Shown here one piece after another: positions 2,900 through 23,792 of a stretch of 44,747 bases of DNA. Numbering within the stretch: position 1 is the stretch's first letter; the number at the start of each line of letters is the position of its first letter. The DNA is from Escherichia phage TR3, in the sequence record PP069512; one strand, 5' to 3'. The position numbers and the translations under genes were made by a program. The notes beneath the pieces are model-generated. The model searched no databases. It worked only from the letters and a program-made list of their open reading frames with translations, and was not told where the DNA came from.

Positions 2900-2910
2900 A
2901 AGGAAAATAT

Positions 2911-3570
2911 ATGGCCCATCTCAGCAATGGCACCCAGGTCTTCGTAGAGGGCACTAGGGGTAATACTATCGACGTAACAGCAATTACCAATGCTGTTGCT
3001 CCTGTTTTAACTTTGTCCGACGCCACAGGTATTGCGCGCGGGGATTACCTGCTGTTCACCAGCTCAGCTTCAACACTTCTGGCTGATAAGCAAGTTCGTG
3101 TCACTGCGGTATCTGGTTCGGACGTAACTGTTGAAGGTATTGATACCTCCAACAACACTAAGTTTCCAGCCGGTTTAACTGGTGAAGTAGTTAAGATTCT
3201 TAGCTGGTTTGAAGTTCCTTGTGTTCAGGATGTATCCACTGACGGCGGCGAACAGCAGTTCGTTAACTTCCAGTGTTTATCTGATGACCGCGAGCAAAAG
3301 ATTCCAACCTATAAGTCTGCGGTAACTAACACCTACACGTTCGCGCACGAATACACCAACCCGGTATATCCGATTCTGCGTAACTATGATGAGTCTGGTC
3401 AGGTTGTTGCTATCCGTCTGTTCGTGCCTCGCGCTAGTGAGATGCGACTTCAGTCTGGCACTATCTCTTTCAACGACACCCCGAGCATTGGTGTTAACGA
3501 AATCGAAACGGTATCCATCGCGGTATCCATCCGTGGTAGGCTGAGTTCTGTGGCTTCTGAGCTAGTATAA
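2911..3570 (+). CDS. major tail protein
   Basis: 219 aa; position between neck genes and tail chaperone; RBS AAGGA; followed by strong terminator. Confidence 0.7.
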   Translation: MAHLSNGTQVFVEGTRGNTIDVTAITNAVAPVLTLSDATGIARGDYLLFTSSASTLLADKQVRVTAVSGSDVTVEGIDTSNNTKFPAGLTGEVVKILSWFEVPCVQDVSTDGGEQQFVNFQCLSDDREQKIPTYKSAVTNTYTFAHEYTNPVYPILRNYDESGQVVAIRLFVPRASEMRLQSGTISFNDTPSIGVNEIETVSIAVSIRGRLSSVASELV

Positions 3571-3575
3571 AATTA

Positions 3576-3597
3576 ACCCTCTTCGGAGGGTTTTTTA
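3576..3597 (+). terminator. intrinsic terminator after major tail gene
   Basis: CCCTC-TTCG-GAGGG hairpin then TTTTTTATT. Confidence 0.7.
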
Positions 3598-3600
3598 TTG

Positions 3601-3644
3601 ATAGCACTTTTTGTTAAAGACGTGTGGCAGGGATTTGCTATTAT
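3601..3644 (+). promoter_or_regulatory. phage promoter box (ATAGCACTTT-TTGTTA, 22-bp spacer, TATTAT)
   Basis: Box at 3601-3616; -10-like TATTAT at 3639-3644; member of repeated motif family. Confidence 0.5.
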
Positions 3645-3683
3645 TACTTTATCGAAACGAGATGGATTATAGAGGTAAGCAAA

Positions 3684-3824
3684 ATGATTTTAATTGGTAT
3701 GCTGACCGCTTTTTTCTATTATGCTACAGGTCTAACCTTTTGGGTATCATTAGGTGCAGCCATAGGCACTTACTTCGTATCTGCTGTGCTTGCTTTAATT
3801 GTGATAGCGCTGCGTAATCGCTAA
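3684..3824 (+). CDS. small membrane protein (46 aa, two hydrophobic segments)
   Basis: ATG 3684 with RBS GAGGT 8 nt upstream; hydrophobic composition; track ORF 3624 has no RBS. Confidence 0.45.
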   Translation: MILIGMLTAFFYYATGLTFWVSLGAAIGTYFVSAVLALIVIALRNR

Positions 3825-3842
3825 AACGAGAGAGAAAACAAA

Positions 3843-4091
3843 ATGAACAACGTTAAAAATATCATCAAACTTACTGCTGCTCTTGGTGCTTTCTACCTGG
3901 CAATTCAGATTGTCAACCCAACTGGTGGCGCAACCGCAAACTCTGATGCAATAAAGTATGAACATGAATTTAATAGTGCATATTCGCATTGTGAAAAAGT
4001 AGCTGGCGATAAGACAAACCAGATTCTGCACTATGGTCGCGAAGTGTGCACCGAAGTTGCTCACAACATTGTAAAAAACGAATCAAAGTAA
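3843..4091 (+). CDS. small protein with N-terminal signal-peptide-like segment (82 aa)
   Basis: Hydrophobic N-terminus LTAALGAFYLAIQIV; two Cys; sits in an insertion between major tail and chaperone genes. Confidence 0.5.
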   Translation: MNNVKNIIKLTAALGAFYLAIQIVNPTGGATANSDAIKYEHEFNSAYSHCEKVAGDKTNQILHYGREVCTEVAHNIVKNESK

Positions 4092-4126
4092 TATAATCAT
4101 TCAACATAAACAAAGGAGATAACGAG

Positions 4127-4441
4127 ATGGCAAAATTCAAACTTTCACTTAAGGCGCTTCCTGACTTTAAACTTCCAGTTAAGTTTCAGCTTGCGAATGG
4201 AGAGGACGCAGAAGTAGTCTTAACAGTTAAGCACAAGAAATCATCTGAGTTACAGGAGATTCTTAATCGTGAAAACTTCAGCACTAAGGAATTGATTAGC
4301 GAAATCTGCTCTGACTGGGATTTAGAAGAACCATTTAACGATGAGAACGTCGATGAGTTTGCAAACCTTTTCCCTGGTGCAGTTCCATCGCTAATGGATA
4401 GCTACATGAAAGCACTTGCAGGGCAGCGAGTAAAAAACTAA
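4127..4441 (+). CDS. tail assembly chaperone (lambda gpG-like)
   Basis: Acidic 104-aa protein between major tail and tape measure genes; RBS AAGGAG; slippery site at its 3' end. Confidence 0.7.
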   Translation: MAKFKLSLKALPDFKLPVKFQLANGEDAEVVLTVKHKKSSELQEILNRENFSTKELISEICSDWDLEEPFNDENVDEFANLFPGAVPSLMDSYMKALAGQRVKN

Positions 4442-4755
4442 AACGCGCAGTATACTTACAATACCAGTCACCGCCAACGGATGCCGAACTCGAAGCTATC
4501 GGAATGAAACGTTCCGATTATGAAGGTGAGGAGCCTGAAGAGTTACACTTCGATGAAACAATGATGCAAAGCTGGGATGTGTACTGTGCTATGTCGACAC
4601 AATGGCGAGTAGGTGCTTGCGGTGCCACAGGCCTTGATTATAATTGCCTTCCATTCTTGTTCAAAGTCTATAAAATAGATGATGAAGAAATGGTACTTAA
4701 CGATATCAGAATACTTGAGGCTAAAGCCTTAGATATGATGAACGCCAAGAAATAG
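4127..4755 (+). CDS. tail assembly chaperone G-T fusion via programmed -1 frameshift (4127..4437 joined to 4438..4755)
   Basis: Heptamer A_AAA_AAC at 4432-4438 in the G frame; -1 frame open 4402..4755 with no RBS for ATG 4504. Confidence 0.6.
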
Positions 4756-4778
4756 CCATCCTTCGGGGTGGCTTTTTT
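4755..4778 (+). terminator. intrinsic terminator / attenuator before tape measure gene
   Basis: GCCATCC-TTCG-GGGTGGC hairpin then TTTTTTATT, abutting the tape measure RBS. Confidence 0.5.
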
Positions 4779-4792
4779 ATTATGGAGACAAT

Positions 4793-7765
4793 ATGGCAAC
4801 TAACGAAATTGCTGGTATCACGCTAGCCGTCGACGTCGCTCAGGTCGATAAGGGTACGCAATCATTACAGAAATTCAGGCAAGCAAACGAGCAAGCTGCA
4901 ACGGGAATCAATAGCTTCATCAACGCCGAGCTTGTAGCCAAGACTCAAGCAAGGGACACTGCAAGGCAGCTTGAGGAACAGCGCAAATCTTTCGCATCAC
5001 TTCAGAAAGCCATAGACCCAACTGCCGCTAAATTCCAGAAGTTGCAGAAGGCAGCAACTGAATTAGACAAAGCATTTGAATCTGGGATAGTTCCTGATGA
5101 AGAATTCTTCAGGCTTGGCTCTGTTATTGAAACTCAAATCAATAAGCTCAACAGGTCTAAAGCTGCTCTTAGCGAGGAAGGTCGGGCTGCACTCCAGGCA
5201 TCAATAGACAAAGAAAAGGCAACAGCAGCGGCGCAAAAGTTCATTCAATCTCTTGAGAACGAGGCGAATGCAGCAAGCCTTACAAGGACTGAACTGCTTC
5301 AGCTTAAGGCTGCTCAGCTAGGGGTTAGTGACCAAGCTGCGCCTATTATCGACAGGATTGGTAAGGCTGCCGAGGCATCTGCTATTCAGTTGCAGAAGCA
5401 GAGTTCCGCTTTTCTTAAGTCAGGTTTAAGCGCCGGTCAGTACAAGCAAGCGATTCGCCAGCTACCCGCTCAGATTACAGATATCGGAACTTCCCTTGCT
5501 AGCGGCATGCCAGTCTGGCTTGTTGCAATCCAACAGGGTGGGCAGATTAAGGATAGTTTTGGCGGTATTGGAAATACAGCAAGGTTTGCACTGGCAGCCA
5601 TTAACCCATTAACAGCAGTTGTTGGGACTCTAGGCCTGGCTCTTGGCGCTTTGGGTGTTGCGGCTTATCAGGCCGATAAGAATGCTCGAGGACTAGCATC
5701 TACGATAACGTTGGTTGGCAACTCAACTATCACGTCTACAGCGCAGATAAATCAGGTTGTTGATGGAATTGAGAGATCAACACTAGCTACTCGCGGACTT
5801 ATTCAGGAAATAGCCAATAGCCTTGTGGCAAACGGAAACCTAACTCTTACGCAGATAGACAAGATAACTAAGGCAACAGCGCAGTGGGCGGCAGTAACAT
5901 CAACCGATTCAAAGACCATTCTCGGGTACTTTGACCAAATTACAAAAGACCCTGTTAAAGGCCTTGCTGAGCTTGATAAGCAATTTAACTTCCTTCAAAG
6001 TGGGCAGTTAAAACACATAGAGAACTTAAGGAAGACAGCGGGAGAGACTGAGGCTGTAACAGCAGCTACTGAGTTATTTGCTAACGTTATGGAAAACAGG
6101 CTAGAAGATGTTGCACTAAGCCTCAATCCGCTAGAAAGTGCATGGAATAGCTTCAGGAAGTTTGTAAGTAATATTTGGGATGATATCGGCAAAAGGACAC
6201 TTGGTGCTCTTAACTTAATAACTGACGTTGTTGCTGGGACGATTGAGCAGATAAGGTCGTTCATAAACTCAGGCGACATTCTTCTTGGTGAATTTGCTAT
6301 CGCTGCAACCAAGACGCTTCAGTCAATCCCGGGACTTGGCGATTTAGGCAATGAAGCAATCGCTGAGCAGCAAAAGATTGTCGATGCTGCCAAGAAGCAA
6401 AACATTGAGTTAGCTAAAAGCATAGCTGAGCGAGACGCGAGAATCAGGAAGGGTGAGCTTGGTTATGTCGAGAGCAACAATAACACTAACCTGAGCGGGA
6501 ATAATGCATCAACAGATAAGGAGTTCGGAGCAAGGAAGAAAGCGCTAGCAGACGAGCTTGATGCAATAAAGAAATCGAGGAGCGAGAGGAATAAGGCAGT
6601 AAAAGAAGAAATGGATTTAACTTTATCTTATGAATCTGGTGTTCTTGCACTTCAGGCTCAGTTAAAGGCTTTGCAAGAGCATAGGACGATAAATGATGTA
6701 ATAAGTAACGAACGAAAGCAGCTATTCCAGGAAGAAGCTAAGTTTGCAATACTTGAACAAAGATATGCTGATGGTAGCCTGACTAAGTCTCAAGCCAAAC
6801 TGCTAGCGCAGAAGGATATCATTCTTGAGCAAGCTAAACAGAAGGCTGAACTTGGTGACCGAATCGTTCTTCAGGAGCGGTCAAACAAGTTACTTGATGA
6901 CAACCTTAAGAAGACAATACAGATTACCAATGAGGCGAAGAATGTTTCACTTGCTGCTGGTCTATCCGAAAGGGAGCGGCAAAGGGCAAGAGAACTTCAG
7001 GCGCTAGAGTCCAATCAGTTAAACAAAGGTGGATCTGTAGATGATGTTGATTTCCAGAATCTGCTGGAAGCAAGAAAAGAATACTACAGGCAGGAAGATA
7101 ACCTAAGGTCAGACTGGCAAGCTGGTGTAACTTCAACGCTTGCTGACTTAACTGAGAAGTACACTGACTTCAACCAAATTGCTAAGGATTTGACTGTCGC
7201 AGCTTTTGATGGAATTACCGACCAGATTACAAACCTTGTAACCACTGGTGAGACTAATTTCAGGGAGTTCACGGTAAGCATCCTCAAAATGATTGCGAAG
7301 ATTGCGACACAGCTTCTGATTGTTAAGGCTATTGAGTCAAGTTTGAGTAGCTTTGGTGGCACTGGCGGCGCAATTGGTTCAATTGGTAGTGCGCTTGGAT
7401 TTGCTGGCGGCGGCTACACTGGTGACGGTGGGAAGTATCAACCTGCTGGAACGGTGCACAAAGGTGAATTTGTTTTCACCAAAGAAGCAACCAACAGGAT
7501 TGGCGTTAAGAACCTGTACAAGCTGATGCGAGGTTATGCCAATGGTGGCGCTGTTGGTGGGCCTTCTGGCTATGCTAATGGTGGAGTTGTTGGCGGTACA
7601 AATGTTAATGTAAGCGGAATCACTGTTAACGTGAATTCTGGAATCGGTGGCGGTAATGATGCTAAGGCGATAGAATCTGGAGTCAAGGTTATCGTGGCTG
7701 AGGAAATCAGCAAGTCATTCCAGCAGGGTGGCAGGGCCTTTGCTTTCTTGCGAGGTTATAATTAA
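4793..7765 (+). CDS. tail tape measure protein
   Basis: 990 aa, Ala/Gln/Lys-rich coiled-coil character, Gly-rich C-terminus, position after G/GT chaperone. Confidence 0.9.
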   Translation: MATNEIAGITLAVDVAQVDKGTQSLQKFRQANEQAATGINSFINAELVAKTQARDTARQLEEQRKSFASLQKAIDPTAAKFQKLQKAATELDKAFESGIVPDEEFFRLGSVIETQINKLNRSKAALSEEGRAALQASIDKEKATAAAQKFIQSLENEANAASLTRTELLQLKAAQLGVSDQAAPIIDRIGKAAEASAIQLQKQSSAFLKSGLSAGQYKQAIRQLPAQITDIGTSLASGMPVWLVAIQQGGQIKDSFGGIGNTARFALAAINPLTAVVGTLGLALGALGVAAYQADKNARGLASTITLVGNSTITSTAQINQVVDGIERSTLATRGLIQEIANSLVANGNLTLTQIDKITKATAQWAAVTSTDSKTILGYFDQITKDPVKGLAELDKQFNFLQSGQLKHIENLRKTAGETEAVTAATELFANVMENRLEDVALSLNPLESAWNSFRKFVSNIWDDIGKRTLGALNLITDVVAGTIEQIRSFINSGDILLGEFAIAATKTLQSIPGLGDLGNEAIAEQQKIVDAAKKQNIELAKSIAERDARIRKGELGYVESNNNTNLSGNNASTDKEFGARKKALADELDAIKKSRSERNKAVKEEMDLTLSYESGVLALQAQLKALQEHRTINDVISNERKQLFQEEAKFAILEQRYADGSLTKSQAKLLAQKDIILEQAKQKAELGDRIVLQERSNKLLDDNLKKTIQITNEAKNVSLAAGLSERERQRARELQALESNQLNKGGSVDDVDFQNLLEARKEYYRQEDNLRSDWQAGVTSTLADLTEKYTDFNQIAKDLTVAAFDGITDQITNLVTTGETNFREFTVSILKMIAKIATQLLIVKAIESSLSSFGGTGGAIGSIGSALGFAGGGYTGDGGKYQPAGTVHKGEFVFTKEATNRIGVKNLYKLMRGYANGGAVGGPSGYANGGVVGGTNVNVSGITVNVNSGIGGGNDAKAIESGVKVIVAEEISKSFQQGGRAFAFLRGYN

Positions 7766-7796
7766 TTAATGTGGCTTCGGCCACTAAGGATTTTAA

Positions 7797-8147
7797 ATGG
7801 CATTGCAAACTTTTAACTGGTGCTTGAACGTTCTCAATGGCGGCTCTTCATTTACTAACGCCAACAATGTTAGGGTTGTCTCATTTGGGAATGGATTTCA
7901 GCAGCGTGGTACTGGAGGCTACAGAACGAATAAAAGGACGTATACGGTTAGCTACGTTGGTCGTGAGTGGGAAGCAGTAATGAACTTCTGCTTCGATCAC
8001 ATCGTAAAACCTTTCGCGTGGACTACGCCGCAGGGTGAGTTAAAACTGTTCGTTATTCAGCAGGATAGCATTAGCGTCTCGCCAAGCACGAAAGAAGTTC
8101 AGACTGTTAGTATGCAATTTACTGAAGTTTTCACCTCAATGAGTTAA
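7797..8147 (+). CDS. minor tail protein (lambda gpM-like)
   Basis: 116 aa directly after tape measure; RBS AAGGA; conserved lambda-like order M-L-K-I-J. Confidence 0.7.
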   Translation: MALQTFNWCLNVLNGGSSFTNANNVRVVSFGNGFQQRGTGGYRTNKRTYTVSYVGREWEAVMNFCFDHIVKPFAWTTPQGELKLFVIQQDSISVSPSTKEVQTVSMQFTEVFTSMS

Positions 8148-13600: not shown

Positions 13601-13990
13601 ATTAGTCTTGGCCTGAAATACAATGGACAGACTTATTCATCCGGTATGAGCATGGAGCTTGTCGGCACTGGTGACAATGTTCGTAGTCAATTCATTTTTG
13701 ACGCAAACAGATTCGCTATCAGTAACGGCATTGGTTCCGGCTCCGGTCAGTGGCAACTCCCCTTCGTTGTCGAGAATGGAAACGTAATCATCAAGAGTGC
13801 AGTTATCGGCGATGGCTCAATCAGTAACGCGAAGATTGGTAACTTTATTCAGTCTAATGACTGGGGTACAAATTCAGGCTGGAGGCTAGATAAGGATGAT
13901 GGATTGACGCTTAGGGGTTCCGATCGTGGCAAGATGAGAGTCCTGGACCGGAATGGAGTGGTTAGGGTAAAATTAGGATACTTGGGTTAA
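10673..13990 (+). CDS. central tail fiber / host specificity protein (lambda gpJ-like)
   Basis: 1105 aa; follows M/L/K/I homologs; fibronectin-III-like middle region; C-terminal receptor-binding-type domain. Confidence 0.85.
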   Translation: MAQDIKIYGSKGGQPKQHQPVEQPDNLISVNKVKVLLAVSDGEVDNSFSLKDLYLADVPVQNQNGTYNYEGVTAEFRPGTQSQDYIAGLEGANSEVQVNREISNSTPYIIAVNNTQLSAIRVKLFWPRLIKQENNGDLNGTSCEYAIDLSVDGATYTEYTRGVANGKTTSGYDRSIRVNLPAEFSSALVRVRKITADSESSTLVNDMQITTYQEVIDAKFRYPLTALVYVEFSSDLFPNGIPTISIKKRWKLIRVPTNYNPETRTYSGTWNGTFKMAYSNNPAWVLYDLVTNQRYGLDQRELGITIDKWGLYEAAQFCDQMVPDGKGGMEPRYLCDVVIQQKVEAYQVIRDICSIFRGLTFYDGEQIGIVVDKPRQPSYVFTNDNVVDGLFNRTFGSDKSLYTVANVQFDDVENSYQQDVEPVFELEATRRFGYNPVDLTAIGCTRRSEANRRGRWLLKTNLRSETVSFTTGLEGMIPMIGEVIAVNDQAWSSNYTLNLSGRIESVSGLQVFVPFKIDAAAGDRILINKPDGMPEYRTIASVSEDGMTLQLNTAFSFTPQPDTVFAIDKENLALQQYVVTGIQKADSDGDDAFGYTITAVEYDPNKYDEIDYGVNIQDRPTSIVEPDTLLAPENVQVSSYSKVVQGLSVETMIITWDKVQYAKTYTVQWRKENGNWINVPRTANTEIDIEGIYAGIYDVRVRSVSDTENVSAWSGIVTVSLTGKIGRPSAPTVITASTDEVFGIRVKWGFPEGSGDTAYTELQQVPDNGDGTYNPDNASLLTLLPYPAYEYWHTPIQPGKVIWYRARLIDRIGNTSDWSNFARGMSTDDANIINDFIKVDIEGSEGFKYLEQNAIQKNQDIQNQAEAIIENALANDGDVRRMTKENGKRKAEYVQAVNLIADETQARVEALTALKAQIDDEVVASITEVQTALATETEARTTADTTLSARLGENEAALNQKLDAFSNATSTGVQYGISLGLKYNGQTYSSGMSMELVGTGDNVRSQFIFDANRFAISNGIGSGSGQWQLPFVVENGNVIIKSAVIGDGSISNAKIGNFIQSNDWGTNSGWRLDKDDGLTLRGSDRGKMRVLDRNGVVRVKLGYLG

Positions 13991-13999
13991 TAAATTATT

Positions 14000-14029
14000 G
14001 GCGGGTAAATCCCGCCTAAGGTTTTATTT
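14000..14029 (+). terminator. intrinsic terminator
   Basis: GGCGGG-TAAAT-CCCGCC hairpin then T-rich tract. Confidence 0.6.
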
Positions 14030-14031
14030 GT

Positions 14032-14403
14032 ATGACTGGTTTGTATGGTTGGGAGATGTACGATTCTGCGGGGCGGCTTGTAGCTGACAATAGCAGCATA
14101 ATGAGCAGGAGGCTATTCACTTATAGCGTGCCACTGATAAGGGCTTTATCTGCAAACATACCATGGGAAGTCTCATTTAATGTTAACTTCTCAAATGGAA
14201 CGCCTTATGCGCATTGCAATACCAGAACAGGGGTGGTGGTCCCTGCATCTACTAACTGGTATCCAGTATCACCTGATATAATAATATCTGGAAATGCAGT
14301 TACACTCAGGTATACAAACAGGCATGTTTCCTATCCGGACGATCTTGGGTACATACTTGCAGTTGGTGGTGTTGATGTTCACTTAGGAGTTTATAATAAA
14401 TGA
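14032..14403 (+). CDS. hypothetical protein (possible tail-fiber-associated)
   Basis: 123-aa ORF downstream of J in an AT-rich segment; no clear RBS, start uncertain. Confidence 0.4.
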   Translation: MTGLYGWEMYDSAGRLVADNSSIMSRRLFTYSVPLIRALSANIPWEVSFNVNFSNGTPYAHCNTRTGVVVPASTNWYPVSPDIIISGNAVTLRYTNRHVSYPDDLGYILAVGGVDVHLGVYNK

Positions 14404-15197
14404 GTGATTATGGTGTTGAACTAATAAATGACTATGGTTTAAAGGTTGCTGACGCAGAGGATGTAAATTACGTACTAAGAAGTTCTGGTACATTTAATGA
14501 TTCAAATTTCTACTCATATGCAAACTCCACATCTGCAATTAGCCTCATGACCACAGGAATGAATTCGCCTCTTCTATTTCTAAAGATGAACGAAAGTAGG
14601 TCAAGGATAAGCCAGAAGCCTGGAGTTAACAAAATATCACCTGATTTTGTTAACCCAAATACCACAATAACAAAGACAAGCATAGACCTATTCAAGTGGT
14701 GGAACATACCGCTAGGAACTGTAGAGTATTACATATTTGACAAGTGGATCCCGCCAGAAAGAAGTGATTATGGAATGCAGATATTTAATGAATCTGGTTC
14801 TATAATCTTTGATTCTGGCTGGTACTTCCTCAAACTTAGGGATGTGCTATGGCTTGATCCAAGTTATCCAAACCATTCAGATCAGGAAGGTGGTAGTAAC
14901 TGGACTAACGTCGGGAATATTGTCAACTCCGCGAACGTATCAAACTCAGCATTATCAATGCCTGTTGGTAGGGGGTGGGTTGAAACATCATTGCAGGGTG
15001 GGTACTACTATAATGAATGCTGTCACCTTGACTCATCCGGTAATCTATTTATATCCATAATACCTACAGGTATATACCTTGATGTTTCACCAACTGGCGG
15101 CTGGGTTGGCAATATGAGGACGCAAGTTATGGTTTGCGACACCTCGAGGCTGCCTCTTAATTACAATCCAGTTGAGATAAGAAAGGAAAACAAATAA
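14400..15197 (+). CDS. hypothetical protein (265 aa, possible receptor-binding accessory)
   Basis: ATGA overlap with upstream ORF; RBS AGGAG; AT-rich, Asn/Ser/Tyr-rich. Confidence 0.5.
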   Translation: MSDYGVELINDYGLKVADAEDVNYVLRSSGTFNDSNFYSYANSTSAISLMTTGMNSPLLFLKMNESRSRISQKPGVNKISPDFVNPNTTITKTSIDLFKWWNIPLGTVEYYIFDKWIPPERSDYGMQIFNESGSIIFDSGWYFLKLRDVLWLDPSYPNHSDQEGGSNWTNVGNIVNSANVSNSALSMPVGRGWVETSLQGGYYYNECCHLDSSGNLFISIIPTGIYLDVSPTGGWVGNMRTQVMVCDTSRLPLNYNPVEIRKENK

Positions 15198-15201
15198 AAA
15201 T

Positions 15202-15220
15202 AAGGCCCTTAATGGGCCTT
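15202..15220. terminator. bidirectional terminator between convergent genes
   Basis: AAGGCCC-TTAAT-GGGCCTT hairpin flanked by A-tract and T-tract; contains stop codon of lipoprotein gene. Confidence 0.6.
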
Positions 15221-15394
15221 CTTGTTAAAACAATATCCAGCTGGTAAAACCGAATAAAGATTTTGATTTACCTCTCCATTGCTGTATTCACAACCTCTAA
15301 TTGTAACTGAGTAGTCACTGATAAGAACTATAGTTCTTTCACCGCCTGAACAACCAGCTAAAATCATTGCAGTGATAACGATTAATTTTTTCAT
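15209..15394 (-). CDS. small lipoprotein (candidate Cor/Llp-like superinfection exclusion protein)
   Basis: Signal peptide with lipobox LAGC (MKKLIVITAMILAGCSGG); 3 further Cys in 46-aa mature part; next to receptor-binding genes. Confidence 0.6.
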   Translation of the reverse strand: MKKLIVITAMILAGCSGGERTIVLISDYSVTIRGCEYSNGEVNQNLYSVLPAGYCFNKKAH

Positions 15395-15395
15395 C

Positions 15396-15500
15396 TTAGA
15401 ACCCTTTAAAGTTGCTAGCCAGCATCAGAAGCCATACGAAGAAACCAGTAGCTGCTACACCGAAGATTGCAGAGATTACGTTAGTAGTTAAGTTAGTCAT
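15396..15500 (-). CDS. small single-pass membrane peptide (34 aa)
   Basis: Not in ORF track; MTNLTTNVISAIFGVAATGFFVWLLMLASNFKGF; RBS AAGGA 7 nt upstream; its stop abuts lipoprotein start. Confidence 0.45.
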   Translation of the reverse strand: MTNLTTNVISAIFGVAATGFFVWLLMLASNFKGF

Positions 15501-15583
15501 TTTGTATTCCTTAGTAAGTGTGTTTCGTTTCGATGGAAAGATAATACCGCATCCTTGCGATAAGTGTTTAGCAATTAGTGCTA

Positions 15584-15853
15584 TTAGTGAATATCCTCAC
15601 AGCCAGGAATGGACTTAACATTGTAATGCCGATAAGCGAATATCAAGTTAAGAGCCTGCTCGACCGTGCATTTAAGGGCGCCAGAGATAATAAATGAAGA
15701 CTCAGTGATGTGATTTATTAACTCATTTCTGACAGGGTCGTCATCTGCTAGTAACTCTGCGCGCTTAACAAAAAGAGCGTTGTTTACCAGGATTGTCACA
15801 ACCTTTTCATTGAGCTCTTTCTTCGCTTTTGCAATCTCTTTCTCGTAGTTCAT
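15584..15853 (-). CDS. hypothetical protein (89 aa), first gene of leftward lipoprotein cassette
   Basis: ORF with AAGGCGG-like RBS. Confidence 0.5.
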   Translation of the reverse strand: MNYEKEIAKAKKELNEKVVTILVNNALFVKRAELLADDDPVRNELINHITESSFIISGALKCTVEQALNLIFAYRHYNVKSIPGCEDIH

Positions 15854-15995
15854 CTTATACCGCCTTGTTTTCGATTTGCATTACGCTATTAACTGACATC
15901 ATAACATTCCGATTCTGCTGCTGAGTAGTGGTTACTACATGCTGCATTTTATTGCAGTCACTTTAAATGACCACATCTTATTGTGGTCATTAGTG

Positions 15996-16685
15996 CTACT
16001 TATCTTTAAGTAGCAACTTGATATCAATTCCTAGATTATTCTCAATCAATCCAGTCAGTGCACCTACCTTTTCCTTAAGTGCGAAGCACTGTGTTTCATA
16101 CTTGAATCTCAACTCCATCTCATCAGAGCGACTTGACCAGCACTGCCGAGCCTCGCACGCTAGCTCATCAATCTTCTTGTCAAGTTCCTTATCTGACAGG
16201 GTGATTTCAGTAATTCGCTGCTCAGCTACGATTCTCTGGATCAAGTGAGCATTCTGCGCTTGCAGGTATCCATTCTTCATTCTTTCCTCTTTAAGTTCAT
16301 CAATGCTTACCATCTGACTGATTACTTCCGCTTGCTTGTTGATGGTGCTTTGCATTTCTTTAAGCTTAGCAAGCACTGCGCGACGAACGAACTTTGATTC
16401 TCTCATCCCAATCAAAAGCATCTGTTCCATATTGAGCACTGGTGAGTTGATTGACTTTCTATAACCTCCTCTACCCTCACTCTTGATTACGAAACTTTCG
16501 TAGTCAAACTCAAACCCTTCAAGCTCATCCTCTATTCTCTCAACAAAGTCATTGTGTCGAACATTGGACTCCCCAGCGATCAACATCGCTGGGTTGATAA
16601 CTTCATTTAAAAACTGATAACTATTCATTTTTACGTCTTCATTAAGTAATGCTAAGTTCATTTTCGTCTCTCTTTTGTTTTTCAT
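15996..16685 (-). CDS. hypothetical regulatory-like protein with coiled-coil C-terminus (start may be 16661)
   Basis: 229-aa ORF downstream of promoter box at 16791-16810; function not recognisable. Confidence 0.55.
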   Translation of the reverse strand: MKNKRETKMNLALLNEDVKMNSYQFLNEVINPAMLIAGESNVRHNDFVERIEDELEGFEFDYESFVIKSEGRGGYRKSINSPVLNMEQMLLIGMRESKFVRRAVLAKLKEMQSTINKQAEVISQMVSIDELKEERMKNGYLQAQNAHLIQRIVAEQRITEITLSDKELDKKIDELACEARQCWSSRSDEMELRFKYETQCFALKEKVGALTGLIENNLGIDIKLLLKDK

Positions 16686-16765
16686 TCCTAAGATTTGAGG
16701 AGTTAACTAAGTTCTTTTCCTCAATTTGAGGAGGAGTTGACAGCACCATTGCCGCCACGCGCCTA

Positions 16766-16810
16766 AATATACCTAAAGATAGCCAGTTGTCTTTAGCAAA
16801 TCGTGCTATT
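16766..16810 (-). promoter_or_regulatory. phage promoter box (minus strand), 22-bp spacer, TATATT
   Basis: rc of 16791-16810 = AATAGCACGATTTGCTAAAG; -10-like rc of 16766-16771. Confidence 0.5.
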
Positions 16811-16839
16811 TATCGACAATTTCACCATAAATCACAGTT

Positions 16840-17001
16840 ACACGTAACCGATGTAACTCGATGTATACAATCTCATCCGCGGGAAATGATATACGCGCTG
16901 TTACGCCAATTTACGCATTGGTTACATTAAAATATCTATATATATCAACCTTTTACTCTTATTATTATTATTATATATATTACTGTGTATATCATGTAAC
17001 T
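16840..17001. repeat. non-coding control element, copy A (ACACGTAACCG box, GTTACGC repeats, (ATT)5(TA)4 microsatellite, TCATGTAACT)
   Basis: Paralogous to 34915..35070 with conserved spacing (152 vs 146 bp between the two anchor boxes). Confidence 0.6.
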
Positions 17002-17229
17002 ACTTCTATAGAGTGTTCCGGTTATAATTTTAATATCATGTGGATTTATACAGTATTGCGCGGCAGCTATACCAATGCACCCTCAGCGAGAAACGGCATA
17101 CACGATATACACGATGTTTACATTGAGCTATGGCTGGCTTGAGATGCCAAAAAGCGTAACTAGTGCCAATGCCTACACGAAATTACAAAGATTCACGCGT
17201 AAACTTAAATCAACGATTGGCAAAACCAA

Positions 17230-17257
17230 TTGGACTGGTTACGGTGCTGAATATATA
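17230..17257 (+). promoter_or_regulatory. candidate sigma70 promoter (TTGGAC-N16-TATATA)
   Basis: Canonical spacing; about 40 nt upstream of ATG 17297. Confidence 0.35.
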
Positions 17258-17296
17258 GTTACCTCATCGAAAGCAATCAACCAGAGAGATATATAA

Positions 17297-17491
17297 ATGA
17301 CCTACTACATTATCAAAGAGAAAAACAACGCACTGTTCGGCGACTGCTACTTTGGAGGAGAGGCCGGTTACACCACGGATAAGAACGAAGCAGACAGATT
17401 CGAGACCAAAGGAGAAGCCCGCGATGTACTGACCGGTTACTTCACTGAAGAAGATTTGAAGTCTGTTAAAGTAGTTAAGGTCAAGGGGTGA
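17297..17491 (+). CDS. hypothetical protein (64 aa)
   Basis: First ORF of rightward recombination operon. Confidence 0.5.
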   Translation: MTYYIIKEKNNALFGDCYFGGEAGYTTDKNEADRFETKGEARDVLTGYFTEEDLKSVKVVKVKG

Positions 17492-17494
17492 GTT

Positions 17495-18460
17495 ATGAGC
17501 TTTAAAGTTTTTACGCGAGAGGAGCTAAGCAACGAGGCTTACCACGCTGAAACTGAACACATCTCAGGTAGCTCGCTTGTCGAGATTATCCAGGGATCAC
17601 CAGCCAAGTGGAAGTTTAAGCAGCGCAACAATGATAGCAAGGCGCTTAAGTTCGGCACGCTAAGCCACACGATGATTTTAGAGCAAGATGTATTCGAAAA
17701 AGAATACCTTCGCGCAACAGACCTTGACTCGATTGAAGGCTTAATTACAAGTCAGTCTGGATTATCATCAGCACTTAAAAAAGTTGGTGTAGCTGGCACG
17801 TCAGGTAAGGGGTATAGCGAGCTTATAGAGATGATGTATCGATCTGGTGAGGATTGGCCCGTTGGATGGTTAATTGAGCAGCAGGAGAGCGCCCAGGCGC
17901 TTGCGGATGGTAAGGAGCTAGTTAGCGCAGTAGACTATGACAAGGTTGTAGCGATGCGTGAGGTCCTCTGCAACATTCCGGCGTATAATGCGATCGTGAA
18001 CAGTAAGACGGCGCAGAAAGAGTTATCGATCTTCGGTGAGATTCTAGGAGTCGGCGTTAAGATTCGAATTGACCACGTTGATGTTGTTGATGGAGCAGTT
18101 CGGATCACAGATTACAAAACGACAGCAGACGCAAGCCCGGAAGGATTCGGTAAGTCAGCATTCAACCACGGATACCTTGCAAAAATGGCACTTCAGCGTG
18201 ATCTGTTTGTGAAAGCATTCAACGAGAAGCGCAAGGTTGTTGTGGGGTTGCTGGCACAGGAGAAGGTGGAGCCATACTTACCAATGCTGTACACCCTAAC
18301 TGACGAACAGCTTCGCATTGGTCGTCTCCAGTATCTTGAGGCACTTGCCACTTACAAGAAGTGCAAGGAGCTAGATATCTGGCCTGGGTACTCGAACGGC
18401 ATAACAGAGCAAGAACTACTAGTCCCTGAGTGGGCTCTAAAGCAATACAAAGAAATCTAA
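17495..18460 (+). CDS. PD-(D/E)XK exonuclease (RecB/RecE-like)
   Basis: Motifs RIDHVD ... ITDYKTT (D...D/E-x-K); adjacent to Erf-type annealing protein. Confidence 0.7.
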   Translation: MSFKVFTREELSNEAYHAETEHISGSSLVEIIQGSPAKWKFKQRNNDSKALKFGTLSHTMILEQDVFEKEYLRATDLDSIEGLITSQSGLSSALKKVGVAGTSGKGYSELIEMMYRSGEDWPVGWLIEQQESAQALADGKELVSAVDYDKVVAMREVLCNIPAYNAIVNSKTAQKELSIFGEILGVGVKIRIDHVDVVDGAVRITDYKTTADASPEGFGKSAFNHGYLAKMALQRDLFVKAFNEKRKVVVGLLAQEKVEPYLPMLYTLTDEQLRIGRLQYLEALATYKKCKELDIWPGYSNGITEQELLVPEWALKQYKEI

Positions 18461-18504
18461 ACAGCACGAATTGCTAAAACAAAACGGGATGACTTAGGTA
18501 TAGT
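18461..18504 (+). promoter_or_regulatory. phage promoter box (ACAGCACGAATTGCTA, 22-bp spacer, TATAGT)
   Basis: Box 18461-18476; -10-like 18499-18504. Confidence 0.5.
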
Positions 18505-18533
18505 TATCCAATCAACAACGAACGAGGTTAAAG

Positions 18534-19184
18534 ATGCAAATTTCAGAATTATGCAAATCAATTTTAAAAGCGCTTCACACTGCTAAATCGCTATTTGCGA
18601 AGGCTGAAAAGTCTAAGCAGAACTCTCACTTAAAGAATAAATACGCTACCTTAGAAGACGTTTTGGCGGCTGTTGAGCCTGGTTTATATGAGTGTGGTTT
18701 GGTGATGTTCCAGAGTGTGATTGATGACGAACAAACAAATCGCATGAAGGTCGAGACAAAGCTGTTTCATGTTGAATCTGGAGAGTGGGTAAGCTTCTTA
18801 ATGATAGTCCCAATCAGCAAGAATGATGCACAAGGTTACGGATCAGCTTTAACATACGCTCGTCGCTACGGTATCACAGCTGCCTTGGGTCTTAGCCAGG
18901 CTGATGATGACGGAAATCTTGCAGCCAAAGGCGTTAAGGATTTCAAGCGAGAGCTAGAGAAATGCAATACTCTTGATGAACTTCGTAACGTCTGGAAAGA
19001 GGCTAAGCAGTCACTTGATGCGGCTGGATGGAAGGTGTTTGAGCCTTACATTATCGAGCGAAAAGCAGAGATTGAGGCAAATGCAGCAACTGGCTTCAAC
19101 CCAGCAACACCAAAGAAAGTTGCAGAAAAAAGTAGTACTACTGAAAAGATTGAAGTAGAATCACAACAAATCGACACATTCTAA
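18534..19184 (+). CDS. ERF-family single-strand annealing protein
   Basis: Motif GSALTYARRYG typical of Erf family; RBS GAGGT. Confidence 0.8.
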   Translation: MQISELCKSILKALHTAKSLFAKAEKSKQNSHLKNKYATLEDVLAAVEPGLYECGLVMFQSVIDDEQTNRMKVETKLFHVESGEWVSFLMIVPISKNDAQGYGSALTYARRYGITAALGLSQADDDGNLAAKGVKDFKRELEKCNTLDELRNVWKEAKQSLDAAGWKVFEPYIIERKAEIEANAATGFNPATPKKVAEKSSTTEKIEVESQQIDTF

Positions 19185-19227
19185 ATTAAGCGGGGATTCG
19201 TCCCCAACAAAACAGAGAGAGATAACA

Positions 19228-19647
19228 GTGCACGTAATTACTGGTCAGATTCGCAAAGCACCATTCACCAAAGAAGGCAGCAACAACAACGGACGTTGGA
19301 AAATGTACGCAGTAGAACTTTCTGAACGAATGAAGATTCGAAATCAGAATGGCGAGGATGAGACTGTTTACAGTAACTACCGCGCTACGTTCTTCGCAAA
19401 GGAAAATGTCATGGCATGGTATGACGAAGCGTTCCAGGAAGGTAAGGTGGTCTCTATTTCGTCCGATACGTTACACATTACGGCGCGTGATCATAACGGA
19501 ACTACATACACAACAGCGGAGCTTATCCGCCCTCAGTTGCAATTCAGCCAGCGCGAGCCAGCACAACAGCAGCCTCAGCAACAACAGCAGCAACCTCAGC
19601 GGTCACCGCAGCAGCAAAAACAATTCGATGACGACATTCCATTCTAA
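19228..19647 (+). CDS. ssb: single-stranded DNA-binding protein
   Basis: C-terminal acidic tail DDDIPF preceded by Gln/Pro-rich linker; GTG start (uncertain). Confidence 0.75.
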   Translation: MHVITGQIRKAPFTKEGSNNNGRWKMYAVELSERMKIRNQNGEDETVYSNYRATFFAKENVMAWYDEAFQEGKVVSISSDTLHITARDHNGTTYTTAELIRPQLQFSQREPAQQQPQQQQQQPQRSPQQQKQFDDDIPF

Positions 19648-19659
19648 TGATAAAACTAA

Positions 19660-19685
19660 CCCCGCCTCCGCGGGGTTTTTGTTTT
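19660..19685. terminator. bidirectional terminator
   Basis: CCCCGC-CTCC-GCGGGG hairpin then TTTTTGTTTT; tailspike stop lies in the T-tract. Confidence 0.7.
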
Positions 19686-22248: not shown

Positions 22249-22271
22249 TGTGTAAAGTCTCCATATGTAAA

Positions 22272-22317
22272 ATAGCACGAATTGCTAAAGTGGATTGTAG
22301 CATCTTTCAGGTATAAA
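22272..22317 (+). promoter_or_regulatory. orphan promoter box on + strand between two leftward genes
   Basis: ATAGCACGAATTGCTAAAG at 22272-22290; TATAAA at 22312-22317 (24-bp spacer); no downstream + strand gene. Confidence 0.35.
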
Positions 22318-22321
22318 AAAA

Positions 22322-22335
22322 CCTCCCGAAGGAGG
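22322..22335 (-). terminator. terminator of primase gene (minus strand)
   Basis: CCTCC-CGAA-GGAGG hairpin with A-tract on + strand; abuts primase stop. Confidence 0.55.
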
Positions 22336-23310
22336 TTAGCTGTTCAATAAATCACTTGCCTTATATATCTTCTTCCTGATTCCGCTCTTGAATGAGTATT
22401 CATCATTTGGTATTACCACATCAAGATTCCTCTCATCAGCAACGCAAAGCAATTCCCTATCAAGATAGCAAGCAACTCTTAACTTGAAATCTTTGAGTGC
22501 GTAAGCAACCATCTCCATGTTGTAGCTAGAGTGGCAAACAAGTACACATCGGTTGCCAGTAGCAAGATGAACACGAATACCATCAATCCAATTATCCACA
22601 AGATAAGCGTACTCATCACTTTTAAAGGAACCAATAACAGCAACTGACTGGCGTGTGTAATATTTTGCAGCATAACTAACATCTCCCTCCTCGTTAATAA
22701 ACATTACATTGCACATTTCTTCTGATATACCGTCACTATAAACCATAAAGCACGGTATTGCGTGTATTATTTCACCGGATTTTGTCCTGCCAACATCAAA
22801 ACCAAACTCGCTATAGATACCCTCGTATGTACTGAGCGGGGTTGATTCTACTCTTTCAGTCCTCTCCATTATCTCTAAGCATCTCTCGTGGTCAATTTGA
22901 GCGCCCATTTTGTAGAGCTTGGTTCTTGATGCTTGCTTGTTTGCCTTGTTAACAACCTCAACAGGGATAAGGCTTAACCACTCACCGAGAACATCGATAC
23001 ATTCACTAAATGACTCACCTCGCATTTTCTGGACCCAAACAACACCATCTCCTGAACCGCATTGGTTGCAGATAATTCCACCATCACCATCTTCGCTAAC
23101 CTTATTAGTCCATCTTGCGCGATCGTTGCCGCCGCAATAAATGCACGGCTGATGCTTTTTGGTCTGGAAAAACTTAGGGTCAGCGCCGCAGATGTTGATA
23201 AGTGCTTTATCCCACAGGCCGCGCATTCTTGGTATAACTTCTTTCTTATCGTAGTGCATATCAATCTGTCTCTTAACAAATAAAAAAAGGATGTACCGAT
23301 TATGGCACAT
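22336..23310 (-). CDS. DNA primase (zinc-ribbon type)
   Basis: Zinc-ribbon motif CIYCGGNDRARW...CNQCG near N-terminus; start may be internal Met at 23259. Confidence 0.65.
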   Translation of the reverse strand: MCHNRYILFLFVKRQIDMHYDKKEVIPRMRGLWDKALINICGADPKFFQTKKHQPCIYCGGNDRARWTNKVSEDGDGGIICNQCGSGDGVVWVQKMRGESFSECIDVLGEWLSLIPVEVVNKANKQASRTKLYKMGAQIDHERCLEIMERTERVESTPLSTYEGIYSEFGFDVGRTKSGEIIHAIPCFMVYSDGISEEMCNVMFINEEGDVSYAAKYYTRQSVAVIGSFKSDEYAYLVDNWIDGIRVHLATGNRCVLVCHSSYNMEMVAYALKDFKLRVACYLDRELLCVADERNLDVVIPNDEYSFKSGIRKKIYKASDLLNS

Positions 23311-23318
23311 CCCATTCT

Positions 23319-23792
23319 TTACTCTTTAGCTTTTCGTGCTGCCTCGTTGGCGGCCTTAATCTTACGCCATGATCGACACTCTGGCTTGGTGGCTAATTCA
23401 GCTTCGGTAACCACGCGCAGCATATGACGCTTTTTGCAACGTAGTGTAAGAGGCTTGCCGTTACCGTCGAATTGCAGGTCTGGTCGGCAGAATGTAGCTC
23501 GAAAACCTTCTCCGGTTCGTTTGTAGTAGTTGTGCGACAGCTGAGCACCACGCGCAGAAATCATACCACGATTGAACCATTCTTCTACAGTTTGGGGAGT
23601 TACCTTTAACTGCTTTGCGATGTTTGCCTTTGTTCCGAAGAAATCAAGGAGCATCTCAAGCCGTGCGCGTAACCCTGCCCTTACCTCGTCTTTTAAAACG
23701 TAGTAGCCTGAAGGTCGTTTCCGTTGTTTTTTGTCTTCAGTGCGGATGGTTCCGTTATTACCGTTAGTGGTTCGCTTGTCAACTGCACTCAT
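23319..23792 (-). CDS. basic HTH DNA-binding protein
   Basis: HTH-like segment TKANIAKQLKVTPQTVEEWF; ATG 23792 with RBS GAGGT (track start 23828 lacks RBS). Confidence 0.55.
   Translation of the reverse strand: MSAVDKRTTNGNNGTIRTEDKKQRKRPSGYYVLKDEVRAGLRARLEMLLDFFGTKANIAKQLKVTPQTVEEWFNRGMISARGAQLSHNYYKRTGEGFRATFCRPDLQFDGNGKPLTLRCKKRHMLRVVTEAELATKPECRSWRKIKAANEAARKAKE

What the first reader, a model, noticed from the sequence alone, without database searches (positions are those of the whole stretch)
4432..4438. Programmed -1 ribosomal frameshift site in the tail assembly chaperone
The heptamer A_AAA_AAC sits at the last codons of the gpG-like gene (4127..4441). The -1 frame is open from 4402 to 4755, and the downstream ATG 4504 has no RBS. 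This matches the lambda G/GT arrangement, giving a fusion 4127..4437 + 4438..4755.
Basis: partly seen in the sequence, partly recalled or inferred. Interest (0 to 1): 0.6.

Follow-up and report, generated by a model that had tools for sequence, protein, structure and literature searches.

The report
Tail chaperone -1 frameshift site
This is a real but ordinary example of the well-known ribosomal frameshift that lets tailed phages make a short and a long form of their tail assembly chaperone; it is simply missing from the annotation of this T1-like coliphage.

Summary
A_AAA_AAC (4432..4438) lies in the X_XXY_YYZ phase of a 104-codon chaperone gene (4127..4441, Pfam Phage_TAC_4). It directly abuts the UAA stop, and the -1 frame is open 4402..4755 (DUF1799). 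The genes sit between the tail tube gene and the tape measure gene.

Comparative evidence is decisive. In 61 unique junctions from related phages the A_AAR core is invariant while neighbouring synonymous sites vary freely. The phase of variable sites switches from the zero frame to the -1 frame exactly at the heptamer. ATG 4504 is ATG in only 14 of 61, and its Shine-Dalgarno pairing is no better than that of a random ATG. In 74 of 78 prophage junctions the same place holds A_AAA_AAC or G_GGA_AAC. The conceptual 209-aa fusion matches phrog_17368 end to end (E 1.6e-87).

The same frameshift is already annotated or reported in the T1-like phages Skenny and Stevie, so the kind is known. The closest record (phage TR2) lists two separate genes.

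The join should be 4127..4438 + 4438..4755 (junction VKN-LKR), or 4127..4435 + 4435..4755 (VKK-LKR). A tryptic digest gives no usable junction peptide.

No stimulatory RNA structure is conserved.

The parts
2911..3570 (+). Major tail (tube) protein gene; upstream context that defines the chaperone position
   Evidence: PF08813 Phage_tail_3, E 7.7e-67; phrog_584 major tail protein. The TR2 record mislabels it 'major capsid protein'.
4113..4118 (+). Shine-Dalgarno sequence AAGGAG of the chaperone gene, 8 nt before ATG 4127
   Evidence: Read from the sequence. Duplex with the 16S 3' end is -8.7 kcal/mol.
4127..4441 (+). G-like tail assembly (tape measure) chaperone ORF, 104 aa, 11.8 kDa; product of standard decoding
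   Evidence: PF08748 Phage_TAC_4, E 1.3e-32, full length. Annotated 'tail assembly chaperone' in TR2. Mass.
4432..4438 (+). Slippery heptamer A_AAA_AAC, the -1 shift site; the A_AAR core at 4432..4435 is the universally conserved part
   Evidence: Phase confirmed. A4432 is invariant in 61 of 61 unique relatives while neighbouring third positions use all four bases. The same site is present in T1, EP23 and pAEv1818 and is replaced by G_GGA_AAC in PS-1, and 74 of 78 prophage junctions carry A_AAA_AAC or G_GGA_AAC.
4439..4441 (+). Zero-frame stop UAA directly abutting the heptamer; possible pause element (inferred)
   Evidence: The stop directly follows the codon after AAR in 61 of 61 phage junctions (TAA 59, TGA 2). 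In prophages it follows directly in 54 of 74 junctions and one codon later in 18.
4438..4755 (+). -1 frame extension (T-like domain, 105 codons plus stop), read after the shift; together with 4127..4438 it gives a 209-aa, 23.9 kDa fusion
   Evidence: PF08809 DUF1799, E 2e-14. phrog_17368 positions 109-211 and phrog_680 from profile position 2, which lies upstream of the Met. The fusion matches phrog_17368 over 1-208 to 1-211 of 213, E 1.6e-87. The peptide L[KR]RAVYL... is conserved from the first -1 codon.
4504..4506 (+). ATG used as the start of the separately annotated 'TfmS' gene; most likely an internal Met of the fusion
   Evidence: SD energy -2.6 against a window median of -2.8. The homologous codon is ATG in 14 of 61 unique relatives; the others are TTA 31, CTT 7, TTG 3, TTC 3, CTA 2 and CTC 1. 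It lies in the stem of a local hairpin 4498..4518 in this sequence only.
4754..4780 (+). Intrinsic-terminator-like hairpin and T-run between the T-ORF stop and the tape measure gene
   Evidence: A terminator is annotated at the same place in T1 and Skenny.
4793..7765 (+). Tape measure protein gene (990 aa); downstream context and presumed client of the chaperone
   Evidence: PF06791 TMP_2, E 1.4e-50, and PF09718; phrog_24.

Best explanation
Ribosomes translating the chaperone gene (4127..4441) mostly terminate at UAA 4439 and release the 104-aa G-like chaperone. A small fraction slip back one nucleotide on A_AAA_AAC (4432..4438). In that slip tRNA-Lys re-pairs from AAA 4433-4435 to AAA 4432-4434. 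In the tandem version tRNA-Asn also re-pairs, from AAC 4436-4438 to AAA 4435-4437. Decoding then continues with CUA 4438-4440 in the -1 frame to 4755.

The product is a 209-aa fusion with the G domain at the N-terminus and a DUF1799 'T' domain at the C-terminus. By analogy with lambda gpG/gpGT, many copies of the short form coat the tape measure protein. The rare long form would add a domain that recruits the tail tube protein, and neither form would be expected in the virion.

Shown here: the sequence anatomy, the absence of an independent start, purifying selection on the -1 frame from the first codon after the heptamer, and conservation of a slippery site at this position across a very wide family.

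Inferred: that the shift happens, its efficiency, and the protein-protein roles. Efficiency is probably low, because A_AAA_AAC alone gave 0.16% in E. coli reporters.
For: Anatomy. Gene order and families.

Fusion family: phrog_17368 matches the G part at profile positions 1-107 and the -1 part at 109-211. The conceptual fusion matches in one stretch, E 1.6e-87.

Selection: mean entropy peaks at zero-frame codon position 3 upstream (1.60) and at -1-frame position 3 downstream of the site (1.38), and A4432 is invariant. The peptide LKRAVYLQYQ... is conserved with synonymous changes.

No own start for the second ORF.

Wider family: EP23 and pAEv1818 carry A_AAA_AAC and PS-1 carries G_GGA_AAC, each 7 nt before the stop. 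74 of 78 unique prophage junctions carry one of these two heptamers. In EP23, pAEv1818 and several prophages the -1 frame opens only at the heptamer (10-nt overlap), which pins the shift site.

Precedent: Skenny carries a joined 'frameshift product' CDS and both Skenny and Stevie papers report the shift (PMC6763657; PMC4319613). Lambda G/GT biology is summarised in PMC5009743.
Against: There is no experimental detection of the fusion for this phage or, as far as I found, for any T1-like phage.

A_AAA_AAC is a weak shifter in E. coli: 0.163% alone and 0.739% with a strong pseudoknot (PMC4066793 supplement).

I found no stimulator. The downstream fold has z = -0.45. The fold spanning the site has z = +1.06. 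The alignment fold predicts 0 pairs. The upstream AGGG is not conserved. There is no Rfam match.

The yield could therefore be far below lambda's roughly 1:30. All deposited records of this clade list two separate genes.
Confidence: 0.92

Rival explanations
1. The two ORFs are separate genes, as annotated in TR2, CY1 and IMM-001. On this view the 83-aa 'TfmS' protein is initiated independently at ATG 4504 and the heptamer is incidental.
For: ATG 4504 exists, and gene callers and depositors chose it. Pfam DUF1799 starts near this Met.
Against: SD pairing is no better than for a random ATG. The codon is ATG in only 14 of 61 relatives, and mostly TTA or CTT, which cannot initiate. The 22 codons upstream are under -1-frame purifying selection. 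phrog_680 and phrog_17368 profiles extend upstream of the Met. In T1 the annotated second gene has to start at a Met 50 codons into the conserved domain.
Confidence: 0.03
2. The fusion is made by transcriptional slippage. RNA polymerase would add one A in the A6 run (4432..4437), and the A7 mRNA would be read normally as ...VKK-LKRAV...
For: An A6 homopolymer is present. Transcriptional slippage is known in phage and IS genes (review PMC5009743).
Against: Orthologous sites have no slippage-prone run. Examples are GCA AAA GTT (A4) in Weberviruses and GCA AAG GTC in Sf12-like phages. G_GGA_AAC occurs in PS-1 and in 42 of 78 prophage junctions. What is conserved is tRNA re-pairing potential, not homopolymer length. 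From general knowledge, efficient slippage by bacterial RNA polymerase usually needs runs longer than six.
Confidence: 0.03
3. The heptamer and the open -1 frame are coincidental, and no fusion of biological consequence is made.
For: An in-frame heptamer in a 13-codon overlap has about a 3.7% chance expectation. Another in-frame AAAAAAC at 4073 is clearly meaningless. The motif is intrinsically weak in E. coli.
Against: Position-specific conservation across 61 phage and 74 of 78 prophage junctions, with heptamer swaps that keep slipperiness. The codon-phase switch falls exactly at the site.
Confidence: 0.01

Closest known systems
Bacteriophage lambda gpG / gpGT (Levin, Hendrix & Casjens 1993; Xu, Hendrix & Duda 2004, 2013, 2014; summarised in PMC5009743)
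   Same: Two ORFs lie between the tail tube gene and the tape measure gene. The second ORF is in the -1 frame with no start of its own. A slippery heptamer sits near the end of the first ORF, and no required downstream structure is known. The result is a short abundant form and a rare long form.
   Different: There is no detectable sequence similarity: BLASTP finds nothing for T and only a 26-residue match at E 0.015 for G. The Pfam families differ (PF08748 and PF08809 here). The heptamer is A_AAA_AAC rather than G_GGA_AAG, which is one of the most shift-prone heptamers in E. coli reporters. The stop follows immediately here but is 15 nt away in lambda. The proteins are smaller (104/209 aa against 140 aa for lambda G plus a 144-codon T ORF).
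Tape measure chaperone frameshift annotated in T1-like phages (Klebsiella phage Skenny MK931444; Citrobacter phage Stevie)
   Same: The genes are orthologous (40-55% identity) in the same position, with the same terminator after the T ORF. Skenny carries a joined 'frameshift product' CDS. T1 itself has the identical GCA AAA AAC TAA.
   Different: Skenny and other Weberviruses have only the tetramer-type site GCA AAA GTT TAA. The TR2 clade has never been annotated with the fusion.
IS1 insA-insB' -1 frameshift on A_AAA_AAC
   Same: It uses the same heptamer in an E. coli host. It is a proven low-level frameshift with no established stimulator, and the low yield is functionally appropriate (PMC4066793).
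   Different: It produces a transposase rather than a virion assembly chaperone, and the proteins are unrelated.
g-t frameshift of haloarchaeal tailed virus HCTV-2 (A_AAA_AAC) and HCTV-1 (G_GGA_AAC)
   Same: The same two heptamers are used for the same tail chaperone purpose (PMC5009743).
   Different: The hosts are archaeal and no homology was tested.

Membership tests
G/GT-type tail assembly chaperone pair with programmed -1 frameshift (Xu, Hendrix & Duda 2004 class) | Two consecutive ORFs located between the major tail protein gene and the tape measure gene | tested here: met
   Order is 2911..3570 PF08813, 4127..4441 PF08748, 4438..4755 PF08809, 4793..7765 PF06791. One small extra ORF (3843..4091) intervenes upstream.
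G/GT-type tail assembly chaperone pair with programmed -1 frameshift (Xu, Hendrix & Duda 2004 class) | Second ORF overlaps the end of the first in the -1 frame | tested here: met
   The -1 frame is open 4402..4755, giving a 40-nt overlap; the +1 frame is closed.
G/GT-type tail assembly chaperone pair with programmed -1 frameshift (Xu, Hendrix & Duda 2004 class) | Slippery sequence in the correct phase inside the overlap | tested here: met
   A_AAA_AAC at 4432..4438 is the only in-frame heptamer in the overlap.
G/GT-type tail assembly chaperone pair with programmed -1 frameshift (Xu, Hendrix & Duda 2004 class) | Second ORF lacks its own translation start | tested here: met
   SD energy is -2.6 against a random median of -2.8. 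The ATG is conserved in only 14 of 61 relatives.
G/GT-type tail assembly chaperone pair with programmed -1 frameshift (Xu, Hendrix & Duda 2004 class) | Arrangement and slippery site conserved among diverged relatives | tested here: met
   61 of 61 unique phage junctions keep A_AAR. Distant phages do too, as do 74 of 78 prophage junctions.
G/GT-type tail assembly chaperone pair with programmed -1 frameshift (Xu, Hendrix & Duda 2004 class) | Fusion protein actually produced at a low fixed ratio and required for tail assembly | not testable with these tools
   This needs a western blot, mass spectrometry, reporter assays and genetics. I found no such data for T1-like phages in the searched literature.
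Lambda gpG (PF06894) / gpT (PF06223) protein families | Sequence homology to lambda G and T | tested here: not met
   The Pfam hits are PF08748 and PF08809 only. BLASTP against lambda G gives E 0.015 over 26 residues and against lambda T gives no alignment. The system is functionally analogous but not demonstrably homologous.
Pfam PF08748 Phage_TAC_4 + PF08809 DUF1799; PHROG 17368 (fused form) | Profile match above the curated threshold, full length | tested here: met
   113 bits against a cut-off of 21.1, and 54 bits against 26. The fusion matches phrog_17368 at 293.7 bits over 1-208 to 1-211 of 213.
Stimulated bacterial -1 frameshift signals (dnaX / IS3 / IS911 type) | Upstream Shine-Dalgarno-like element and/or downstream hairpin or pseudoknot 5-9 nt after the heptamer | tested here: not met
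   Downstream fold z = -0.45 and fold spanning the site z = +1.06. RNAalifold on 21 diverse relatives gives 0 pairs. The upstream AGGG is not conserved. No Rfam family matches.
Transcriptional slippage recoding sites | Long homopolymer run conserved as a run | tested here: not met
   Only A6 is present here. Orthologous sites have A4, A3 or GGGAAAC.
Tail assembly chaperone fold (solved TAC structures) | Structural similarity of the G domain to solved chaperones | tested here: inconclusive
   No PDB sequence match at E up to 1. The single-sequence AlphaFold2 model has pLDDT 59.9 and pTM 0.37, too poor for a fold search.

The most novel reading that the evidence does not exclude
The whole PF08748/DUF1799 chaperone family, from T1-like phages to Pseudomonas, Yersinia and Betaproteobacteria prophages, uses a distinct stripped-down signal. 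It is a heptamer of the X_XXA_AAC type, which is weak in E. coli, and the zero-frame stop codon follows directly or one codon later. On this reading slow termination at the stop, rather than an RNA structure, is the pause that sets the G:GT ratio, and the ratio is much lower than lambda's 30:1.
Probability: 0.3. Interest if true: 0.35.

Novelty: already known. Interest (0 to 1): 0.15.

Why it matters
The main consequence is for annotation. In the closest record (phage TR2) and in its relatives TR1, CY1, IMM-001 and ES, the long chaperone form is missing. An artificial 83-aa gene ('TfmS', or 'DUF1799 domain-containing protein') stands in its place. The same is true of the T1 reference record. 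Correct annotation gives join(4127..4438,4438..4755).

Biologically it adds one more confirmed-by-conservation instance of the G/GT strategy. It also shows that this chaperone family consistently uses heptamers that are weak in E. coli, placed against the stop codon. That raises a modest, testable question about how little GT a siphophage needs.

Tried and rejected
1. The protein database search with the conceptual fusion returned only two T-like ORFs and no useful spread.
3. A literature search for 'TfmS' gave only unrelated hits.
4. Looking for a downstream stimulatory structure found nothing. Single-sequence folds were no better than shuffles and the alignment fold of 21 relatives predicted no pairs.
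5. The hairpin 4498..4518 that buries ATG 4504 is 60 nt from the site and is not conserved.
6. An upstream Shine-Dalgarno-like AGGG (4420..4423) was rejected because its third-position bases vary freely.
7. The Rfam scan gave only sub-threshold chance hits overlapping the terminator.
8. The single-sequence AlphaFold2 model of the G protein was too poor for a fold search, and there was no PDB sequence match.
9. Alignments that included all diverged G or T proteins were too variable for the locus scan. A four-sequence T alignment worked.
10. L052, which seemed to place T in another frame, turned out to carry homopolymer deletions.
11. A second long -1 extension, found on the minus strand at about 42879..43274, lies antisense to the prohead protease gene and is spurious.

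Full report
**What the window is.** Positions 2900..8000 are 100% identical to Escherichia phage TR2 (OP251154.1; Drexlerviridae, Braunvirinae, Christensenvirus). The whole window is a circular permutation of a TR2-like genome. It is 98-100% identical to TR2 except for a divergent block at 13858..23321.

The region is the tail module. The genes in order are:
- tail tube protein, 2911..3570 (PF08813);
- a small ORF of unknown function, 3843..4091;
- a 104-aa Phage_TAC_4 chaperone, 4127..4441 (PF08748, E 1.3e-32);
- a DUF1799 ORF ending at 4755 (PF08809);
- a terminator-like hairpin;
- the 990-aa tape measure protein, 4793..7765.

**Check of the observation.** The sequence reads ...CAG CGA GTA AAA AAC TAA AAC GCG..., with GTA at 4430-4432 and TAA at 4439-4441. 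AAAAAAC therefore occupies 4432..4438 in the X_XXY_YYZ phase. The -1 frame has its last upstream stop at 4399..4401 and is open from 4402 to the stop at 4753..4755. The +1 frame is closed.

ATG 4504 has no ribosome binding site. Its best pairing with the 16S 3' end is -2.6 kcal/mol. The median of all 906 ATGs in the window is -2.8, the chaperone start scores -8.7 and the tape measure start -6.4.

An in-frame heptamer in a 13-codon overlap is expected by chance about 3.7% of the time. Of the 45 in-frame heptamers in ORFs of at least 80 aa, only this one sits in a plausible gene and is followed by a long -1 extension, 104 codons beyond the stop. The only other case is an ORF antisense to the prohead protease gene.

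The stretch '4127..4437 + 4438..4755' is contiguous and cannot represent a -1 shift. The junction 'VKK-L' is only one of two possibilities.

**Comparative evidence.** Eight Rtp-like loci and then 80 IMG/VR loci (40-72% protein identity) were collected. After removing duplicates and one error-ridden assembly, 61 unique junction segments remained. They show the following.
- The base at 4432, third position of a Val or Ala codon, is A in all 61.
- Positions 4433-4434 are invariant, and 4435 is A in 56 and G in 5.
- The three preceding four-fold degenerate codons (Gly, Gln/His, Arg) use all possible third bases.
- Upstream of the site, mean column entropy peaks at zero-frame codon position 3: 1.60, against 0.71 and 0.38 at positions 1 and 2.
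- Between 4441 and 4503 it peaks at -1-frame position 3: 1.38, against 0.61 and 0.56.

The reading frame under purifying selection therefore changes exactly at the heptamer. The encoded peptide L-[KR]-R-A-V-Y-L... is conserved from the very first -1 codon, through synonymous changes such as AAA CGC GCA GTA to AAG AGG GCG GTG. The codon homologous to ATG 4504 is ATG in only 14 of 61. In the rest it is TTA, CTT, TTG, TTC, CTA or CTC. In T1 the annotated second gene has to start 50 codons into the conserved domain.

**Variants of the site.** Three forms occupy the same position:
- GYA AAA AAC TAA, found in most lineages including T1;
- GCA AAA GTY TAA, found in Weberviruses such as Skenny;
- GCA AAG GTC TAA, found in Sf12-like phages.

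The common denominator is A_AAR, which allows re-pairing of tRNA-Lys.

Much more distant relatives (about 28-30% identity) keep a heptamer 7 nt before the stop. EP23 and pAEv1818 have A_AAA_AAC, and their -1 frame opens only at the heptamer, a 10-nt overlap. Pseudomonas phage PS-1 has G_GGA_AAC.

A scan of bacterial genomes with a T-domain alignment gave 78 unique prophage junctions in Pseudomonas, Serratia, Yersinia, Erwinia, Xenorhabdus, Janthinobacterium and others. Of these, 74 carry G_GGA_AAC (42) or A_AAA_AAC (32) in frame. The zero-frame stop follows directly in 54 and one codon later in 18. A swap between different slippery heptamers at a fixed position is what selection for slipperiness predicts. 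It also excludes transcriptional slippage as the general mechanism, because GGGAAAC and A3-A4 runs are not slippage-prone.

**Link to known fusions.** The PHROG family phrog_17368 (213 positions) matches the G part at positions 1-107 and the -1 part at 109-211. The conceptual fusion (...QRVKN-LKRAV...) matches it in one stretch, residues 1-208 to profile 1-211, with E 1.6e-87. Klebsiella phage Skenny carries a joined CDS labelled 'tail assembly chaperone frameshift product'. Its paper and the paper on Citrobacter phage Stevie both state that T1-like phages have the conserved chaperone frameshift (PMC6763657; PMC4319613).

By contrast, neither junction version of the fusion from this clade exists in a 15-billion-protein collection. 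Only the 104-aa and 83-aa ('TfmS' or DUF1799) proteins are deposited.

**Mechanism.** I commit to programmed -1 ribosomal frameshifting on A_AAA_AAC, giving an 11.8 kDa G-like protein and a 23.9 kDa G-T fusion.

No stimulator was found:
- downstream fold z = -0.45, and fold spanning the site z = +1.06;
- no conserved pairs in 21 diverse relatives;
- no conserved upstream Shine-Dalgarno-like element;
- no Rfam match.

In E. coli reporters A_AAA_AAC alone shifts 0.163%, and 0.739% with a strong pseudoknot. A_AAA_AAG gives 0.29% alone and 39% with the pseudoknot (PMC4066793 supplement). The yield is therefore probably low, perhaps below lambda's roughly 1:30 (PMC5009743).

The nearly universal placement of the zero-frame stop right after the heptamer is striking. 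In SEA-PHAGES chaperone frameshifts the mean distance is 26 nt (PMC10274946). It suggests that slow termination may serve as the pause, but this is inference. The first -1 codon is a conserved Leu (CUA, CUG or UUA), which partly explains the stop by itself.

The functional roles are taken from lambda, not tested: the G domain would bind the tape measure protein and the T domain would recruit the tail tube protein.

**Comparison with lambda.** The arrangement is the same, but the proteins show no detectable sequence similarity and belong to different Pfam families. Lambda's G_GGA_AAG lies 15 nt before the G stop. The system works like lambda G/GT and belongs to the Xu-Hendrix-Duda class by every sequence-level criterion I could test. 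Homology to gpG and gpT themselves is not shown.

**Verdict.** Its value lies in correcting an annotation gap. A secondary point is that this chaperone family consistently uses heptamers that are weak in E. coli and sit against the stop codon. Interest is low.

Noticed in passing
window 4754..4780: A strong terminator-like hairpin (AGCCATCC-TTCG-GGGTGGCT plus a T-run) sits between the T-ORF stop and the tape measure start. A terminator is annotated at the same place in T1 and Skenny, so transcription may be attenuated between the chaperone genes and the tape measure gene.
   Followed up: partly
window 2911..3570: The closest public record (TR2, OP251154.1) labels this gene 'major capsid protein'. 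It is a tail tube protein (PF08813, E 7.7e-67; phrog_584).
   Followed up: yes
window 3843..4091 (and promoter-like site 4069..4097): An 82-aa ORF of unknown function (phrog_22925) lies between the tail tube gene and the chaperone gene in this clade but not in T1 or Skenny. It has its own in-frame AAAAAAC at 4073 with only 5 codons of -1 frame, a chance heptamer. A 10/12 sigma-70-like match overlaps its 3' end just before the chaperone gene.
   Followed up: partly
window 4498..4518: A 9-bp hairpin (AUCGGAAUG/CGUUCCGAU) buries ATG 4504 in its stem in this sequence. It is not conserved in relatives, and it is too far (60 nt) from the heptamer to act as a frameshift stimulator.
   Followed up: partly
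L052 1500..1760 (IMG/VR UViG_2974632794): This relative has A5 instead of A6 at the shift site, a T4 for T5 loss further on, and a missing T C-terminus. These are most likely homopolymer and assembly errors rather than a different frame arrangement.
   Followed up: yes
protein clusters of window 4127..4438 and 4504..4752: Proteins at least 90% identical are deposited as Nitratidesulfovibrio liaohensis proteins (WP_167124356.1, WP_167124354.1; longest contig on which they were seen 46,669 nt) and as a Staphylococcus aureus protein (WP_337136264.1; longest contig 387 nt). This is probably contamination of those assemblies by a T1-like coliphage.
   Followed up: no
window 13858..23321: The window is a circular permutation of a TR2-like genome at 98-100% identity. 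This roughly 9.5 kb block aligns to TR2 only in pieces at about 80% identity, which suggests a mosaic replacement.
   Followed up: no
L102..L181 (prophage loci in Proteobacteria): 74 of 78 unique DUF1799 junctions carry G_GGA_AAC or A_AAA_AAC in frame. The stop follows directly in 54 and one codon later in 18. L133 has GGG AAA ATC TAG, with no canonical heptamer in phase.
   Followed up: partly
L096 873..1507 (phage T1, NC_005833) and L099 1201..1877 (EP23, NC_016566): The reference records also lack the fusion. T1 lists ST40 and a truncated 55-aa ST39, both named 'tail length tape measure protein'. EP23 leaves the whole T ORF unannotated.
   Followed up: yes
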